DNA from: Tubiluchus corallicola
Lineage: Eukaryota > Animalia > Priapulida
DNA length: 38,908 bases
Direction: 5' to 3'
Assembly: GCA_030141605.1 (NCBI GenBank)
Contig: JAQGDQ010001477.1
Location: forward strand, 1 to 38,908
The position numbers were made by a program, and so were the translations under genes. Under the pieces are notes generated by a model that saw only the letters and a program-made list of their open reading frames with translations, searched no databases and was not told where the DNA came from. Shown piece after piece: positions 8,388-31,085 of the stretch; the stretch's first letter is position 1, and every line of letters starts with the position of its first letter.

Positions 8388-8597
8388 GTTATTGGTGTTA
8401 CTTGTTTGAACATGTAATGTGTAAGCTTGCAAGCTTCACTGTGTAAAAATAATGAAAGAAAAACGAATCTCCTTCAAACAGCCAATCAGTGATCTGCAAA
8501 TTAACAGGTTTTTCAAATGTTTTGAAGAATTTTATTTTATTTTCTGTGCAGTTTTGCAGAACCGGCGTTGACCAGTAAAAACACGTGCCTCCATACC

Positions 8598-8921
8598 TCA
8601 TCCGGTTTATTCGATTTAGATGCAAAAATTATGGATGTGGCTATGCACTCATCCGGTTTATTGGATTTAGATGCAAAAATTATGGATGTGGCTATGCAGT
8701 CATCCGGTTTATTCGATTTAGATGCAAAAATTATGGATGTGGCTATGCATTCATCCGGTTTATTCGATTTAGATGCAAAAATTATGGATGTGGCTATGCA
8801 TTCATCCGGTTTATTCGATTTAGATGCAAAAATTATGGATGTGGCTATGCATTTATCCGGTTTATCTAATTTAGATGCAAAAATTATGGATGTGGCTATG
8901 TATTCATCCGGTTTATTCGAT
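8598..8921. repeat. 51-bp minisatellite, ~6.3 copies
   Basis: TCATCCGGTTTATTCGATTTAGATGCAAAAATTATGGATGTGGCTATGCA(C/T) at 8598, 8649, 8700 and onward. Confidence 0.95.
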
Positions 8922-9725
8922 GAGGTAGCAAGATCGACTACATCAGAAACACATACAGTCCAGACGCCTGACTATGAGACGCGTTTATCTGTTTTTATTC
9001 GTTATTTCGTCTGAGCTTTGACCCTGTAAACAGCTCTAATCTATCTTTCATCTTGAACGTCTCATATGCTGGTCACTTTCTCTCTACGGTAACATTATAA
9101 TATCCGGGACAGGTTGAAGGGTTGTGTATATATAAACATCGTAAGTAGAGCTTTCAAAATTAATAAGTGTAATATTGCTAGTAGTGGGTCTGCATGAGTG
9201 ACATCATCGTTCTCAATTGAAAATAAGTGATTTGATAGAAGCTTCGAAACGTCAGAGGTATTTTGATTTGAAATTGCAATTAAACCAGTGTGACGTAATG
9301 TATAGACGTCACTTTTTTTCATTTGTGACGTGTCTGTTTCTTAAGTTGTTCAAAACAACAGTAATGGTTCTCTCAAAAATTTCTTTGATTCTTTGGAGTG
9401 AACATCAAGGCGCTGGATATACATACAAACCCTTTTCTGGATACGCTACAAGGTTATTTCAGACGGTGCGCCCCAAATGCTAGATTATTGTGTTTTGTTG
9501 TTATTAACGAAAAGTGAACAGCACTGCAGTTAGATCATTGTAGTTCATTCATACCAATCTTTCTCTGTAATTCCTGTGTTTTCAATACTGTAATTTTCGT
9601 CGGTTGGATGCATTTTCTATAACATTGCTGAAGCTCAGAGGATTGTGATTTAACGATGGTACCAGTGTTATTCACACACCGTGTATACTTTCTGGTAGAA
9701 ATTTATTTAACATGTCTTTATATGC

Positions 9726-10357
9726 TTCTTCTTCTTCTTCTTCTTCTTCTTCTTCTTCTTCTTCTTCTTCTTCTTCTTCTTCCCAGCTTTTCCCTGTGCG
9801 GGGTCGCCGTTGTGAATGAATCTTCCCCATGCATTCCTGTTGTTGACCATCTCTTCATTTATGTTCTTCTCTTTAAGGTCTCCATTAATACATTCAGTGC
9901 ATCTCCACTTGGGTCGTCCTCTTCTTCTATTTCCCAGCACTTCCATTTCCATGACCTCCCTTCCCACATGATCTTCACCGACTCTTCTTTTCAGGTGTCA
10001 ATACCATCGCAATCTTGCGAGGCTTCCACTACTTTTACTGTTCCTCTGATATTATTATTTCTAATTTTATCTCTTCTTGTTATTCCCACCATCCATCTCA
10101 ACATCTTCATCTCCACCACACTCATTTTCTTCTCTTCGGTCTTCTTTAGAGAAGCTGCTTCCAGCCCATAGATTAGAGCGGGTCTGACCACTTCTTTGTG
10201 GACTTTACCTTTAAGTCTCACCGACTCATTCATAGAAGGTTTTGGCGCTGTTTTTACAGGCGGATGCCCTTCCTGACCCTAACCCTCCCTATTTATCCGG
10301 CTTTGGGACCGGCACTGAATTGGGCTGGCTTGCCCCCCCCCTCCCAGTGGCTAGGTT
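9726..10357 (-). mobile_element. non-autonomous, internally deleted RTE-clade LINE derivative (5' UTR joined to ORF 3' end plus (AAG)n tail)
   Basis: Minus-strand translation RLKGKVHKEVVRPALIYGLE...EMKMLRWMVGITRRDKIRN / ARLRWY*HLKRR...GNRRRGRPKWR is the typical RTE ORF C-terminus, with a frameshift and a stop. (AAG)n tail at 9726-9782. TSD TTAACA(T/A)GTCTTTATATGC at 9707-9725 and 10356-10374. Confidence 0.92.
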
Positions 10358-10358
10358 A
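10277..10358 (-). ncRNA. twister self-cleaving ribozyme (P1-type; 5' strand of P1 missing) at the RTE 5' end
   Basis: Minus strand reads U|AA CCU A GC C ACUG-[hairpin]-CAGU G CCGG UCCCAAAG CCGG AUAAAU AGG GAGGG UUAGGG. This is collinear with the Oryza sativa twister core as I recall it (UAA CAC UGCC..GCCGGUCCCAAGCCCGGAUAAAAGUG GAGGG). P2 CCU/AGG, P3 ACUG/CAGU, P4 CCGG/CCGG, pseudoknot CCC/GGG. Confidence 0.85.
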
Positions 10359-11338
10359 ACAAGTCTTTATATGCTTAATTACTTTAAATCAGCAGTACGA
10401 GTGTACTTTGAGACATCAACCACTCCCTCATCAGTTCCAAAGTGCTGATGAAGTCTGTTTCATACCCATCTGTGTATGTTTCTTAAAAGAAGACAGGATG
10501 ATTTTTCATGTGTTAACCCATTTTCAAATCCGATAAAAAGTATACATTGTAACACAATTAGTACAGCTAAAGCGTTTCTGATAATTAGATAATAGATTAA
10601 AATCTTAATTAACGGTGGGTGAGCCCAACTATTGATGACATCACAAGCTAACATAATTTTCAATAACAAAAATATTCCAAGAGCGTGTTGCACGTGTTTG
10701 CGAAATCGAAAATCGAAGTACAGTGCTACTGTAAGGTACTCAGTGTGTTGCACTAAACTAGGCAAGTTTTAAGATTTTTTATTTCAAATTTAATGCTGTG
10801 TTCACACATGAGTAGTCGAACATGTATAGTACGTCAGAAACGAACACTTCTAAACCGAGAGTTACAGCATCTGTTTTTTCGTATAATGCGTTTCCGAAAT
10901 GCAGGTGCTAGTGCCCGTTTAACTATCAATGCAAAATGCAGGTAACAGCAAAGAACTAGCGACGCGAACGTGAAATTGTGTTTGTGTGGTAATAATTTCT
11001 TGACGTAAGTCATTTTTGAAAAAAAATAGTATGTTTCCTTGCAATATGATAAAGAGTAGATTCTTTTGACCTACAATTTAAGATTGTGTCCTGTTTTGCT
11101 TTAATTCTCACAACATGCAGTAAGAATGTCCATCTATCACTTAACAGCAAAAGCGTATTGAGCCATTACGATTAGCTCAGTCTACTGTACATGTTTGCAT
11201 ACATGTTTATCATCGCAATCTTCTCATCAATAGCAGCTTATCGCTGATGAGGTGGTCAATATTTTAAGACGGCCGGTTGCGTTGTGTATTTACAAAATGT
11301 CGTGCCTTTGTGGCAGAGAAAAACATGAAAGAAAGCTT

Positions 11339-16058: not shown

Positions 16059-16585
16059 GACCACCGTAGCCTGGTGGACTAAGGCATTTGGAACGTAAGA
16101 AGAACATCCTTAGTTTAAATCCAGACTGCCTTCGAATTTTTTTATTTTTTTCCGTCTAACAAGAACATCTTTGGTTCAAGTCCAGGCTGCATTCCAAATT
16201 TTTTATTTTTTTCCGTCTAAGCACAACATGCTTGATTCAACTCCAGACTGCATTCCAAATTTTTGATATTTTTCCGTCTAAGCACAACATCCTTGGTTCA
16301 AGTCCAGGCTGCCTTCCAAATTTTTTATTTTTTTTCCGTCTAAGCAGAACATCCTTGGTTCAAGTCCAGGCTGCCTGCCAAATTTTTGATTTTTTCCGTC
16401 TAAGCAGAACATCCTTGGTTCAAGTCCAGGCTGCCTTCCAAATTTTTGATTTTTTTCCGTCTAAGCACAACATCCTTGGTTCAAGTCCAGGCTGCCTTCC
16501 AAATTTTTTATTTTTTTCCGTCTAAGCACAACATCCTTGGTTCAAGTCCAGGCTGCATTCCAAATTTTTGGCATTTTTTCCGTCT
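16059..16585 (+). repeat. tRNA-like (SINE-type) head followed by a ~61-bp tandem array, 8 copies, each with a Pol III B-box-like motif
   Basis: A-box-like TAGCCTGGTGG at 16067-16077. GGTTCAAGTCC at 16173, 16295, 16357, 16417, 16478 and 16539, with variants at 16112 and 16234. Each is followed by T-runs. Confidence 0.8.
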
Positions 16586-28670: not shown

Positions 28671-28766
28671 GTAAGTGAACATCTTGAATCCTTTTTAAAG
28701 ATTGGAATGCCAAATAAGGAAATGTTGAAAATCGGCAGAAAATTCTGGTTTCTGGCAATCTATAAA

Positions 28767-31085
28767 AAGCCATTGGTCTGTAGAAATTACTCCTTGGTCT
28801 GTAAGAAGTCATTGGTCCATAGAAATTACTCTCTCTGTAGGAAGCCATTGGTCTGTAGAAATTACTCCTTGGTCTGTAAGAATCCATTGGTCTGTAGAAG
28901 TTACTTCTTGGTCTGTGAGAAACCATTGGTCTGTAGATATTACTCCTTGGTCTGTAAGAAGCCATTGGTCTGTAGAAATTACTCCTTGGTCCGTAAGAAG
29001 CCATTGGTCTGTAGATATTACTCCTTGGTCTGTAAGAAGCCATTGGTCTGTAGAAATTACTCCTTGGTCTGTAAGAAGCCATTGGTCTGTAGAAGTTACT
29101 TCTTGGTCTGTGAGAAACCATTGGTCTGTAGATATTACTCCTTGGTCTGTAAGAAGCCTGTGGTCTGTAGAAATTACTCCTTGGTCTGTAAGAAGCCATT
29201 GGTCTGTAGAAGTTACTTCTTGGTCTGTGAGAAACCATTGGTCTGTAGATATTACTCCTTGGTCTGTAAGAAGCCAGTGGTCTGTAGAAATTACTTCTTG
29301 GTCTGTAAGAAGCCATTGGTCTGTAGAAGTTACTTCTTGGTCTGTGAGAAACCATTGGTCTGTAGATATTACTCCTTGGTCTGTAAGAAGCCAGTGGTCT
29401 GTAGAAATTACTCCTTGGTCTGTAAGAAGCCATTGGTCTGTAGAAGTTACTTCTCGGTCTGTGAGAAACCATTGGTCTGTAGATATTACTCCTTGGTCTG
29501 TAAGAAGCCAGTGGTCTGTAGAAATTACTCCTTGGTCTGTAAGAAGCCATTGGTCTGTAGAAGTTACTCCTTGGTCTGTAAGGAGCCATTGATCTGTAGA
29601 AATTACTTCTTGGTCTGTAAGAAGCCATTGGTCTGTAGATATTACTCCTTGGTCTGTAAGAAGCCATTGGTCTGTAGAAATTACTCCTTGGTCTGTAAGA
29701 AGCCATTGGTCTGTAGAAGTTACTTCTTGGTCTGTAAGAAGCCATTGGTCTGTAGAAATTATTCCTTGGTCTGTAAGAAGCCATTGGTCTGTAGAAATTA
29801 CTCCTTGGTCTGTAAGAAGCCATTGGTCTGTAGAAGTTGCTTCTTGGTCTGTGAGAAACCATTGGTCTGTAGATATTACTCCTTGGTCTGTAAGAAGCCA
29901 TTGGTCTGTAGAAATTACTTCTTGGCCTGTAAGAAGCCATTGGTCTGTAGAAATTACTCCTTGGTCTGTAAGAAGCCATTGGTCTGTAGAAATTACTTCT
30001 TGGTCTGTAAGAAGCCATTAGTCTGTAGAAATTACTTCTTGGTCTGTAAGAAGCCATTGGTCTGTAGAAATTACTCCTTGGTCTGTAAGAAGCCATTGGT
30101 CTGTAGAAATTACTCCTTGGTCTGTAAGAAGCCATTGGTCTGTAGAAATTACTCCTTGGTCTGTAAGAAGCCATTGGTCTGTAGAAATTACTTCTTGGTC
30201 TGTAAGAAGCCATTGGTCTGTAGAAGTTGGTTGTAGAATTACTTCTTGGTGTGTAAGAAGCCATTGGTCTGTAGAAATTACTCCTTGGTCTGTAAGAAGC
30301 CATTGGTCTGTAGAAATTACTTCTTGGTCTGTAAGAAGCCATTGGTCTGTAGAAATTACTCCTTGGTCTGTAAGAAGCCATTGGTCTGTAGAAATTACTT
30401 CTTGGTCTGTAAGAAGCCATTGGTCTGTAGAAATTACTCCTTGGTCTGTAAGAAGCCATTGGTCTGTAGAAATTACTCCTTGGTCTGTAAGAAGCCATTG
30501 GTCTGTAGAAATTACTTCTTGGTCTGTGAGAAACCATTGGTCTGTAAGAAGCCATTGGTCTGTAGAAATTACTCTTTGGTCTGTAAGAAGCCATTGATCT
30601 GTAGAAATTACTTCTTGGTCTGTAAGAAGCCATTGGTCTGTAGAAATTACTCTTTGGTCTGTAAGAAGCCATTGATCTGTAGAAATTACTTCTTGGTCTG
30701 TAAGAAGCCATTGGTCTGTAAGAAGCCATTGGTCTGTAGAAATTACTCCTTGGTCTGTAAGAAGCCATTGGTCTGTAGAAGTTACTCCTTGGTCTGTAAG
30801 GAGCCATTGATCTGTAGAAATTACTTCTTGGTTTGTAAGAAGCCATTGGTCTGTAGATATTACTCCTTGGTCTGTAGAAATCACTTCTTGGTCTGCAGAA
30901 GTTACTCCTTGGTCTGTAAGGAGCCATTGATCTGTAGAAATTACTCCTTGGTCTGTAAGAAGCCATTGGTCTGTAGAAATTACTTCTTGGCCTTTAAGAA
31001 GCTATTGGTCTGTAGAAATTACTCCTTGGTCTGTAAGAAGCCATTGGTCTGTAGAAATTACTCCTTGGTCTTTAAGAAGCCATTG
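28767..31085. repeat. 39-bp intronic minisatellite, roughly 60 copies (18+21-bp subunits)
   Basis: Unit GCCATTGGTCTGTAGAAATTACTCCTTGGTCTGTAAGAA; both subunits contain TTGGTCTGTA. Source of five spurious long ORFs. Confidence 0.98.

What the first reader, a model, noticed from the sequence alone, without database searches (positions are those of the whole stretch)
10277..10365. Twister ribozyme at the retroelement 5' end, with the insertion boundary at the cleavage site
Seen: the minus strand reads ...CUUGUU|AACCUAGCCACUG...CAGUGCCGGUCCCAAAGCCGGAUAAAUAGGGAGGGUUAGGG. It has the U|A cleavage dinucleotide, P2 (CCU/AGG), an extended P3, P4, the CCC/GGG pseudoknot and the conserved G of GAGGG. The TSD runs up to that U|A (10358/10357, with a 2-nt AA overlap), and the 5' strand of P1 that should pair with UUAGGG is replaced by host sequence. 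Established: twister ribozymes occur at the 5' end of RTE elements such as Schistosoma mansoni Perere-3. Inference: this copy was reverse-transcribed to the end of a self-cleaved RNA, so it records ribozyme processing of the parent transcript.
Basis: partly seen in the sequence, partly recalled or inferred. Interest (0 to 1): 0.85.

Follow-up and report, generated by a model that had tools for sequence, protein, structure and literature searches.

The report
Twister-headed mini-RTE retroelement copy
This is a 630-base copy of a jumping element that keeps only the two ends of a likely RTE-type retrotransposon; it and dozens of sister copies begin at the base where a twister RNA is predicted to cut itself, so self-cleavage likely trims the element's RNA out of host transcripts, a set-up already published for a blood-fluke element.

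Summary
Rfam twister-P1 matches 10279-10362(-) (49.9 bits, E 2.4e-8 over the window; below the 67.2 gathering score). A 21-nt target-site duplication (1 mismatch) reaches the predicted U|AA cut at 10358/10357. The element (10357 to ~9725, ~630 nt) is not a full retrotransposon. It joins the twister and 5' UTR to the last ~145 codons of an RTE-like ORF (nearest named proteins: crab and shrimp) and a (GAA)19 tail. It belongs to a high-copy family that likely shares this deletion. In public contigs from two studies, sister copies switch to unrelated flanks at 10357 (59 contigs), 10358 (24) and 10359 (12), roughly what chance extension from one start at 10357 predicts. Corrections: the U is host DNA and is not conserved; P2 has 4 bp; and this copy has a lesion in the 2-bp pseudoknot that ~99% of family depth lacks, so it may cleave poorly. 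Cleavage was not tested. The same TSD/twister arrangement is published for Perere-3 (PMC8501958), bipartite RTEs are known, and this scan noted three similar elements in other genomes. Verdict: a new member of a known kind.

The parts
10356..10376 (-). 5' copy of the 21-nt target-site duplication; its last two bases (AA, 10357-10356) are also the first two bases of the element; supplies the -1 U and a weak P1 5' strand
   Evidence: (D13)
10277..10357 (-). Twister ribozyme (P1 type with P3) minus its P1 5' strand. AA 10357-10356; P2 10355-10352/10291-10288; GC 10351-10350; P3 10349-10343/10319-10313 with a G tract inside; P4 10312-10309/10300-10297; loop 4 10308-10301 with a lesion at 10302-10301; GAGGG 10287-10283; P1 3' strand 10282-10277
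   Evidence: family letters
10224..10277 (-). Rest of the 5' UTR, with a 17-nt block (10277-10261) identical in 5 of 5 aligned RTE-type twister loci; 11 of the 17 letters were in the search pattern, so this is partly by selection. Ends at a possible start of the parent ORF
10223..10224 (-). Internal-deletion junction (about +/-3 nt), where ~840 codons (~2.5 kb) of the parent ORF are missing
   Evidence: match to P0016 starts at residue 840, window 10224; contigs end or diverge at 10223/10224; one X3 contig carries upstream RT sequence beyond 10219
9800..10223 (-). C-terminal ~145 codons of an APE-RT (RTE-like) ORF, with a frame break at ~10018-10015 and a stop at 10000-9998; no start of its own beyond the junction ATG, no RT domain
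9725..9799 (-). Short 3' end and (GAA)19 tail (9782-9725)
9707..9727 (-). 3' copy of the TSD; its first AAG overlaps the last unit of the tail
   Evidence: (D13)

Best explanation
This is a complete, target-site-duplicated copy of a ~630-nt internally deleted, likely non-autonomous RTE-type retroelement whose copies begin at the predicted cut site of a 5' twister ribozyme, which likely releases the element's RNA from longer host transcripts. Steps: (1) shown: the element is the 5' ~134 nt plus the 3' ~500 nt of an APE-RT LINE, with a (GAA)n tail and a 21-nt TSD. (2) Shown: sister copies pass from element to unrelated flanks at the AA of the twister. (3) Inferred: a master copy is transcribed by read-through from host promoters, and its twister cleaves N|AA (P1 supplied by whatever flank is there, or absent), giving an RNA that starts 5'-HO-AA. 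(4) Inferred from known LINE biology: the protein of a full-length RTE binds the 3' end in trans, the GAA tail anneals to the nicked target (AAG overlap), and reverse transcription runs to the cleaved end, where the AA overlap with the target may help second-strand joining. (5) Inferred: this copy has since acquired a loop-4 lesion and sits in a flank that offers a competing helix over the cut site, so it is likely a poor or dead ribozyme and a dead-end copy.
For: Twister-P1 hit, E 2.4e-8. TSD ends at the model's cut site. Loose ends behind 10357/10358/10359: X1 20/8/7 of 69 partly laid contigs, X2 28/10/5 of 102, X3 11/6/not shown of 41, with flank agreement of only 0.44-0.58, i.e. different sites. 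The fall-off roughly fits one start at 10357 plus chance matches to T-rich flanks (X2 p=0.74; X1 p=0.047, with an excess at 10359). A uniform spread over 162 positions is rejected (corrected P<=2e-13 in each run). Depth falls to single-copy level (10 in X1) past 10363. About 99% of family depth reads the canonical loop 4 at 10301-10302 and a G-C instead of G.U at 10319. Depth runs on at 40,000-48,600 across the deletion junction in X1, with no pile-up of loose ends there among the rows shown. The 3' part is 77% identical over 143 aa to a 987-aa APE+RT protein. A relative (L001) has the same twister/UTR block ahead of a 1019-residue open stretch. Perere-3 shows the same junction, with cleavage to 5'-AA for any -1 base (PMC8501958, sections read).
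Against: No cleavage or transcript was observed. A pile-up of full-length 5' ends would also arise from an internal promoter or from one master copy with that end. Only ~5% of summed X1 depth (about 1,200 of 23,000) aligns through this copy's G tract to the tip, so the junction sample is small and biased to similar copies. X1 and X2 are one sample and may be the window's source. X2 has a second pile-up of 17 contigs at 10341 (likely alignment stops at the G tract, but real truncation is not excluded), and 72 loose-end rows were not shown. The score is below Rfam's gathering cut-off. Nested folding gives z=-0.94 and prefers a helix that buries the cut site. Covariation over 5 rows is not significant (2 pairs, 76/500 shuffles). 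No listed contig bridges the deletion junction by 31 nt on both sides.
Confidence: 0.84

Rival explanations
1. The twister is inherited baggage. The family's master copy simply began at the AA (because the autonomous parent was once cleaved there), and its RNA is now started at that base by an internal RNA polymerase II promoter, so the 5' end records a transcription start, not ongoing self-cleavage.
For: An internal promoter gives the same pile-up of 5' ends. The canonical core in ~99% of family depth may reflect recent expansion (this copy differs at 4 of 162 positions) rather than selection. Kojima 2018 (PMC5786205, section 23) notes that LINE 5' extremes drive transcription.
Against: The end falls exactly on the scissile bond placed independently by the Rfam model. 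The same holds in Perere-3, where cleavage was measured (PMC8501958). The ribozyme was kept while ~2.5 kb, and in many copies a further ~95 nt, were lost.
Confidence: 0.1
2. The short form is a one-off internal deletion (template jump during this insertion, or a later deletion) of a full-length RTE, not a propagating non-autonomous family.
For: No listed contig bridges the junction by 31 nt on each side, and some contigs end or diverge at 10223/10224. One X3 contig carries RT sequence upstream of 10219, so longer elements exist.
Against: Summed depth is thousands of times the flank depth in every bin across the junction, and only 69 of 690 X1 contigs are partly laid, with none piled there among the rows shown. 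Several contigs in two studies share a further ~95-nt deletion, as expected of a shrinking family.
Confidence: 0.04
3. The match between TSD and cut site in this copy is a coincidence: a 5'-truncated cDNA ended near the twister and joined the target through an AA microhomology.
For: The AA is present in both TSD copies, so at this locus it cannot be assigned to the element.
Against: In sister copies the alignment runs through the AA and stops there whatever the flank; ends at 10355-10356 are not among the listed pile-ups.
Confidence: 0.02

Closest known systems
T-variant twister ribozymes at the 5' end of Perere-3 (RTE clade), Schistosoma mansoni; Liu et al. 2021, PMC8501958 (abstract, results sections 17-19 and 21, discussion read; supplement searched, part 1 of 104 read, three PDFs in it unreadable)
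   Same: Twister core at the element's 5' end; TSD directly against the AA of the cut site; P1 5' strand supplied by the target; short-repeat 3' tail; no fixed target site.
   Different: Here the element is a ~630-nt bipartite derivative with no APE or RT domain, in another animal lineage (nearest named proteins from Scylla and Penaeus). P2, P3 and the tail unit (GAA vs GTAA) differ. Cleavage was measured there, not here.
Truncated twister ribozymes at the 5' end of RTE-superfamily retrotransposons; one sentence citing work in preparation in de la Pena and Cervera's review, PMC7761336 (passages read; authorship recalled, not shown by the call)
   Same: States the general rule: truncated but active twisters conserved at RTE 5' ends, for processing from upstream transcripts.
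   Different: No data, species or non-autonomous families are given in that passage.
Bipartite non-autonomous RTE LINEs (Bov-A, RTESINE1/2, WALLSI3, MAR4_MD); Kojima 2018, PMC5786205 (passages and section 23 read)
   Same: Only the 5' and 3' ends of an RTE are kept; microsatellite tail; the 5' end is the LINE's own 5' end.
   Different: The passages read discuss ribozymes of the HDV type (citing Ruminski 2011), not twister. This element still carries ~145 codons of the ORF end.
R2 SIDEs and R2/R1 hybrid SIDEs; Eickbush and Eickbush 2012, PMC3414825 (abstract and discussion read)
   Same: A 5' self-cleaving ribozyme joined to a LINE 3' end, transcribed with the host RNA and mobilised in trans; proposed progressive shortening by further deletions.
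   Different: HDV-like ribozyme (type as stated in PMC8501958), site-specific in 28S rDNA, rare; here twister, many unrelated target sites, high copy.

Membership tests
Twister ribozyme, type P1 (Rfam RF03160) | Covariance-model match over the whole model | tested here: met
   1-68/68, E 2.4e-8 over the window
Twister ribozyme, type P1 (Rfam RF03160) | Score at or above Rfam's gathering threshold | tested here: not met
   49.9 vs 67.2 bits; this copy has a host-derived P1, a long P3 insert and a loop-4 lesion
Twister ribozyme, type P1 (Rfam RF03160) | A+1, A+2 and the G of GAGGG present; P2, P4 and the 3-bp pseudoknot paired | tested here: met
Twister ribozyme, type P1 (Rfam RF03160) | 2-bp pseudoknot (GC with loop-4 GC), this copy | tested here: not met
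   G.G and C.A in register; pairs only after a one-base shift that opens P4 pair 4
Twister ribozyme, type P1 (Rfam RF03160) | 2-bp pseudoknot, family majority | tested here: met
   19,396 and 19,286 of 19,503 depth in X1 and like shares in X2 and X3 read the canonical letters at 10301 and 10302
Twister ribozyme, type P1 (Rfam RF03160) | Compensatory changes in the stems | tested here: inconclusive
   2 of 18 pairs change on both sides in 5 rows, two of them near-identical; 76/500 shuffles reach this
Twister ribozyme, type P1 (Rfam RF03160) | Site-specific self-cleavage | not testable with these tools
   needs an in vitro assay
Perere-3-type retroelement T-variant twister | TSD abuts the AA of the cut site and supplies P1 5' | tested here: met
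Perere-3-type retroelement T-variant twister | Copies share the 5' end at the AA with different flanks | tested here: met
   59, 24 and 12 contigs end at 10357, 10358, 10359 in X1, X2, X3
Perere-3-type retroelement T-variant twister | Complete APE/RT ORF downstream | tested here: not met
   only residues ~840-986 of a 987-aa homolog are present; P0001 has no Pfam hit
RTE clade of non-LTR retrotransposons | Parent with a single ~1000-aa APE+RT ORF | tested here: met
   best homologs P0016 (987 aa) and P0006 (962 aa) carry Exo_endo_phos and RVT_1; the label RTE for this layout is recalled, no call names it
RTE clade of non-LTR retrotransposons | Placement in the RTE clade on an RT tree | not tested
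   no reference RT set was fetched
Bipartite non-autonomous LINE / SIDE | Only 5' and 3' ends of a LINE, with tail and TSD | tested here: met
Bipartite non-autonomous LINE / SIDE | Many copies share the deletion junction | tested here: inconclusive
   depth is continuous and very high across it, which favours sharing, but no listed contig bridges by 31 nt on both sides and no assembly is held
Bipartite non-autonomous LINE / SIDE | Intact autonomous partner in the same genome | tested here: inconclusive
   one X3 contig continues into upstream RT sequence; a full ORF was not seen

The most novel reading that the evidence does not exclude
A high-copy twister-headed SIDE family caught in the act of shrinking (about 630, 540 and possibly 320 nt forms), in which each new target site decides whether the copy can be a parent: the flank either completes P1 or, as here, forms an 11-pair competing helix over the cut site. 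The insertion site would then act as a heritable on/off switch of retrotransposition, and the family would be a natural test of the open question why only ribozyme-bearing LINE clades spawn bipartite non-autonomous elements.
Probability: 0.25. Interest if true: 0.5.

Novelty: new member of a known kind. Interest (0 to 1): 0.3.

Why it matters
It adds a family-level case, outside flatworms, for twister ribozymes defining the 5' end of RTE-type elements. It also shows that a protein-free derivative keeps the ribozyme while discarding most of the ORF, which points to RNA release rather than translation as the needed function. With many copies in different flanks, it offers material for testing how the target site affects cleavage. 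The principle itself is published (PMC8501958, PMC3414825, PMC5786205), so this is an extension, not a discovery of mechanism.

Tried and rejected
No genome assembly is held for the window, so copies could not be counted or aligned; public contigs were used instead. The Rfam gathering scan gave 0 hits; the five other Rfam matches near the site had E 0.5-7 and were rejected as chance. No second twister and no other RTE fragment lies in the window. Expression: no RNA holder listed; the one possible RNA run, X7, laid nothing; neither is evidence. X6 carries the same species label as X1 but covers almost none of the element body; not interpreted. X5 (share 0.04) holds short pieces of a related element; not used for host or habitat. 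Summed contig depth was not converted into a copy number, as the tool warns against it. Nested-only folding (z -0.94, 34 of 200 shuffles as stable) cannot model the two pseudoknots and was not taken as a test of the fold. Covariation on 5 rows was underpowered. Pattern scans gave 2 metagenome loci, 2 genome-collection loci and 0 viral loci; all 4 were chosen by the twister core, so their Rfam hits are not independent support. Pfam found no family above cut-off for any of 16 window ORFs or fragments scanned. The UUAGGG of P1 resembles a telomere repeat (recalled) but varies among relatives, so it was rejected as chance. Host identity was not established: nearest named proteins are decapod, but retrotransposons are reported to move between aquatic animals (PMC5055719, abstract). 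Whether the loop-4 lesion is real or an assembly slip in two adjacent homopolymer runs was not resolved: the X1 contig of this locus ends at 10303, just short of it. Literature searches listed no paper on a twister-headed bipartite RTE family in a crustacean. The library lacks most subscription papers and Repbase. The supplement of PMC11662667, which may list crustacean twisters, could not be read. Six taxon terms were absent from the readable part of the PMC8501958 supplement.

Full report
Observation. Rfam twister-P1 aligns over its full length at 10279-10362(-) with 49.9 bits, E 2.1e-10 on a 351-nt stretch and E 2.4e-8 as the only match at E<=0.5 in the 38.9-kb window. It is under the gathering score of 67.2, so the gathering scan returned nothing. 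The model places the U|A step at 10358/10357. Pair by pair: P2 has 4 Watson-Crick pairs, P3 has 5 plus 2 G.U, P4 has 4, and the CCC/GGG pseudoknot has 3. The 2-bp pseudoknot is G.G and C.A in register and pairs only after a one-base shift that takes C10300 out of the fourth P4 pair. Host bases 10363-10360 can form a weak P1 (C-G, U.G, U-A, G.U). A 21-nt direct repeat with one mismatch lies at 10356-10376 and 9707-9727; about 1e-5 such matches are expected in the window. It overlaps the element's first AA and the tail's last AAG.

What the element is. Between the repeats lie about 630 nt: twister, a short UTR, then coding-like sequence and (GAA)19. The coding part matches residues 840-986 of a 987-aa protein (P0016) in two frames, 110 of 143 residues identical, with a frame break near 10018-10015 and a stop at 10000-9998. 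P0016 and P0006 carry endonuclease and RT Pfam domains in one ORF, the layout I recall as RTE-clade; no tree was built. Of 44 homologs found for the 73-aa fragment, the best named ones are from Penaeus and Scylla (Scylla P0013 77% over 141 aa). The host is therefore plausibly a decapod, but this is not established, since such elements are reported to cross between aquatic animals (PMC5055719, abstract). About 2.5 kb of the parent ORF are missing at 10224/10223.

Family evidence. No assembly is held, so contigs of public runs were laid on the locus. X1 and X2 are one sample, possibly the source; X3 is another study. Summed depth over the element body (9810-10319) is tens of thousands in X1 against 10-14 in the flanks; the tool warns this is no copy number, so I say only high copy. 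Contigs that leave the element for unrelated sequence do so behind 10357, 10358 and 10359: 20, 8 and 7 of 69 partly laid contigs in X1; 28, 10 and 5 of 102 in X2; 11, 6 and not shown of 41 in X3. Flank agreement is only 0.44-0.58. One start at 10357 plus chance matches to a 32% T flank predicts 29.8/9.5/3.7 for X2 (p=0.74) and 24.2/7.8/3.0 for X1 (p=0.047, excess at 10359, perhaps T-rich targets). A uniform spread over 162 positions is rejected in each run. So the AA belongs to the family, and the U before it does not: 59 of these 95 contigs have another base there. Limits: 72 loose-end rows were not shown (about 85 contigs, roughly one per row); X2 has 17 contigs stopping at 10341, at the G tract, likely alignment stops; and only about 5% of X1 depth aligns through the G tract to the tip.

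At 10301 and 10302 about 99% of depth in all three runs reads the canonical loop-4 letters, and at 10319 a G-C pair replaces this copy's G.U. This copy differs from the majority at 4 of 162 positions. Depth stays at 40,000-48,600 in X1 across the deletion junction, with no loose-end pile-up there among the rows shown, so most copies likely share it, although no listed contig bridges it by 31 nt on both sides. One X3 contig continues from 10219 into upstream RT sequence (by hand it reads GVICDKRIPA, matching the homologs), so longer forms exist. Many contigs in X1 and X3 join 9862-9865 to 9957-9964, with depth dropping three- to six-fold in X1 over that stretch, and one X3 contig joins 9819 to 10135: shorter subfamilies.

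Relatives. Pattern scans gave four loci and none in viral contigs. All have twister-P1 hits, but by selection. L001 has the twister and the same UTR block ahead of a 1019-residue open stretch. L003 and L004 show one P2 and one P3 pair changed on both sides; with 5 rows this is not significant (76/500).

Mechanism. Most likely (0.84), master copies are transcribed by read-through and the twister cleaves N|AA to give a 5'-HO-AA RNA. A full-length RTE protein then copies it by target-primed reverse transcription from the GAA tail to the cleaved end, leaving the TSD against the AA. Structure, boundaries and shared 5' ends are shown; transcription, cleavage and trans-mobilisation are inferred. This copy is probably a weak ribozyme today. 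McKinley et al. 2024 (PMC11662667; passages and section 35 read) report that P1 and the -1 base are tolerated, while two defects in the 2-bp pseudoknot lower mean fraction cleaved from 0.76 to 0.36 and a defect at P4 pair 4 lowers it to 0.58. In addition, the nested minimum-energy fold pairs UUAACCU with GGGUUAG and extends with four host-derived pairs, burying the cut site (pseudoknots are not modelled, z -0.94). The lesion could also be an assembly slip; the locus's own X1 contig ends at 10303. Rivals: internal promoter with a vestigial ribozyme (0.10), one-off deletion (0.04), chance truncation at an AA microhomology (0.02).

Comparison. Liu et al. 2021 (PMC8501958) describe the same junction in Perere-3: TSD against the AA, P1 supplied by the TSD, cleavage with any -1 base. 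PMC7761336 (passage) says truncated twisters are conserved at RTE 5' ends. Kojima 2018 (PMC5786205) lists bipartite non-autonomous RTEs and leaves open why only RTE, Ingi/Vingi and R2 make them. R2 SIDEs (PMC3414825) are the ribozyme-plus-3'-end prototype. PMC6154101 and PMC6765202 were seen as passages only. My searches listed no paper on a twister-headed bipartite RTE in a crustacean, but Repbase and one relevant supplement were out of reach. Three unchecked notes of this scan describe the same kind of element in other genomes; none matched this sequence.

Verdict. Real, well supported, and a further member of a known kind. Interest 0.3.

Noticed in passing
window 9865-9957 and 9820-10134: Many family contigs skip ~91-99 nt here (depth dips three- to six-fold in X1), and one X3 contig skips 315 nt: shorter subfamilies of the same element.
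   Followed up: partly
window 10483-10760 (to ~10811): A second very high-copy dispersed repeat just upstream of the insertion, also present in run X6; imperfect 34-nt inverted arms at 10506-10539 and 10778-10811. Possibly a small DNA transposon.
   Followed up: no
window 10331-10344: The G tract inside P3 seems to vary in length among copies, and the locus's own X1 contig is 4 letters shorter over 10303-10405 than the window, likely here: allele or assembly slip.
   Followed up: partly
window 16096-16585: Eight tandem copies of a 61-nt unit that contains GGTTCAAGTCC, which looks like a tRNA T-loop/B-box (recalled), perhaps derived from a tRNA or SINE.
   Followed up: no
window 28759-31085: A 39-nt minisatellite of about 60 copies creates open frames of up to 791 codons on both strands; the two scanned have no Pfam match above cut-off.
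   Followed up: partly
window 8547-8954: A 51-nt tandem repeat shares a 13-nt word with the twister P4/L2 region at 10291-10303 (D4); probably chance.
   Followed up: no
L003 1795-2754 and L004 690-888: Contigs in two marine bacterial genome assemblies carry twister-headed RTE-like DNA, likely animal contamination; the 5' part of the twister is tandemly duplicated in both.
   Followed up: partly
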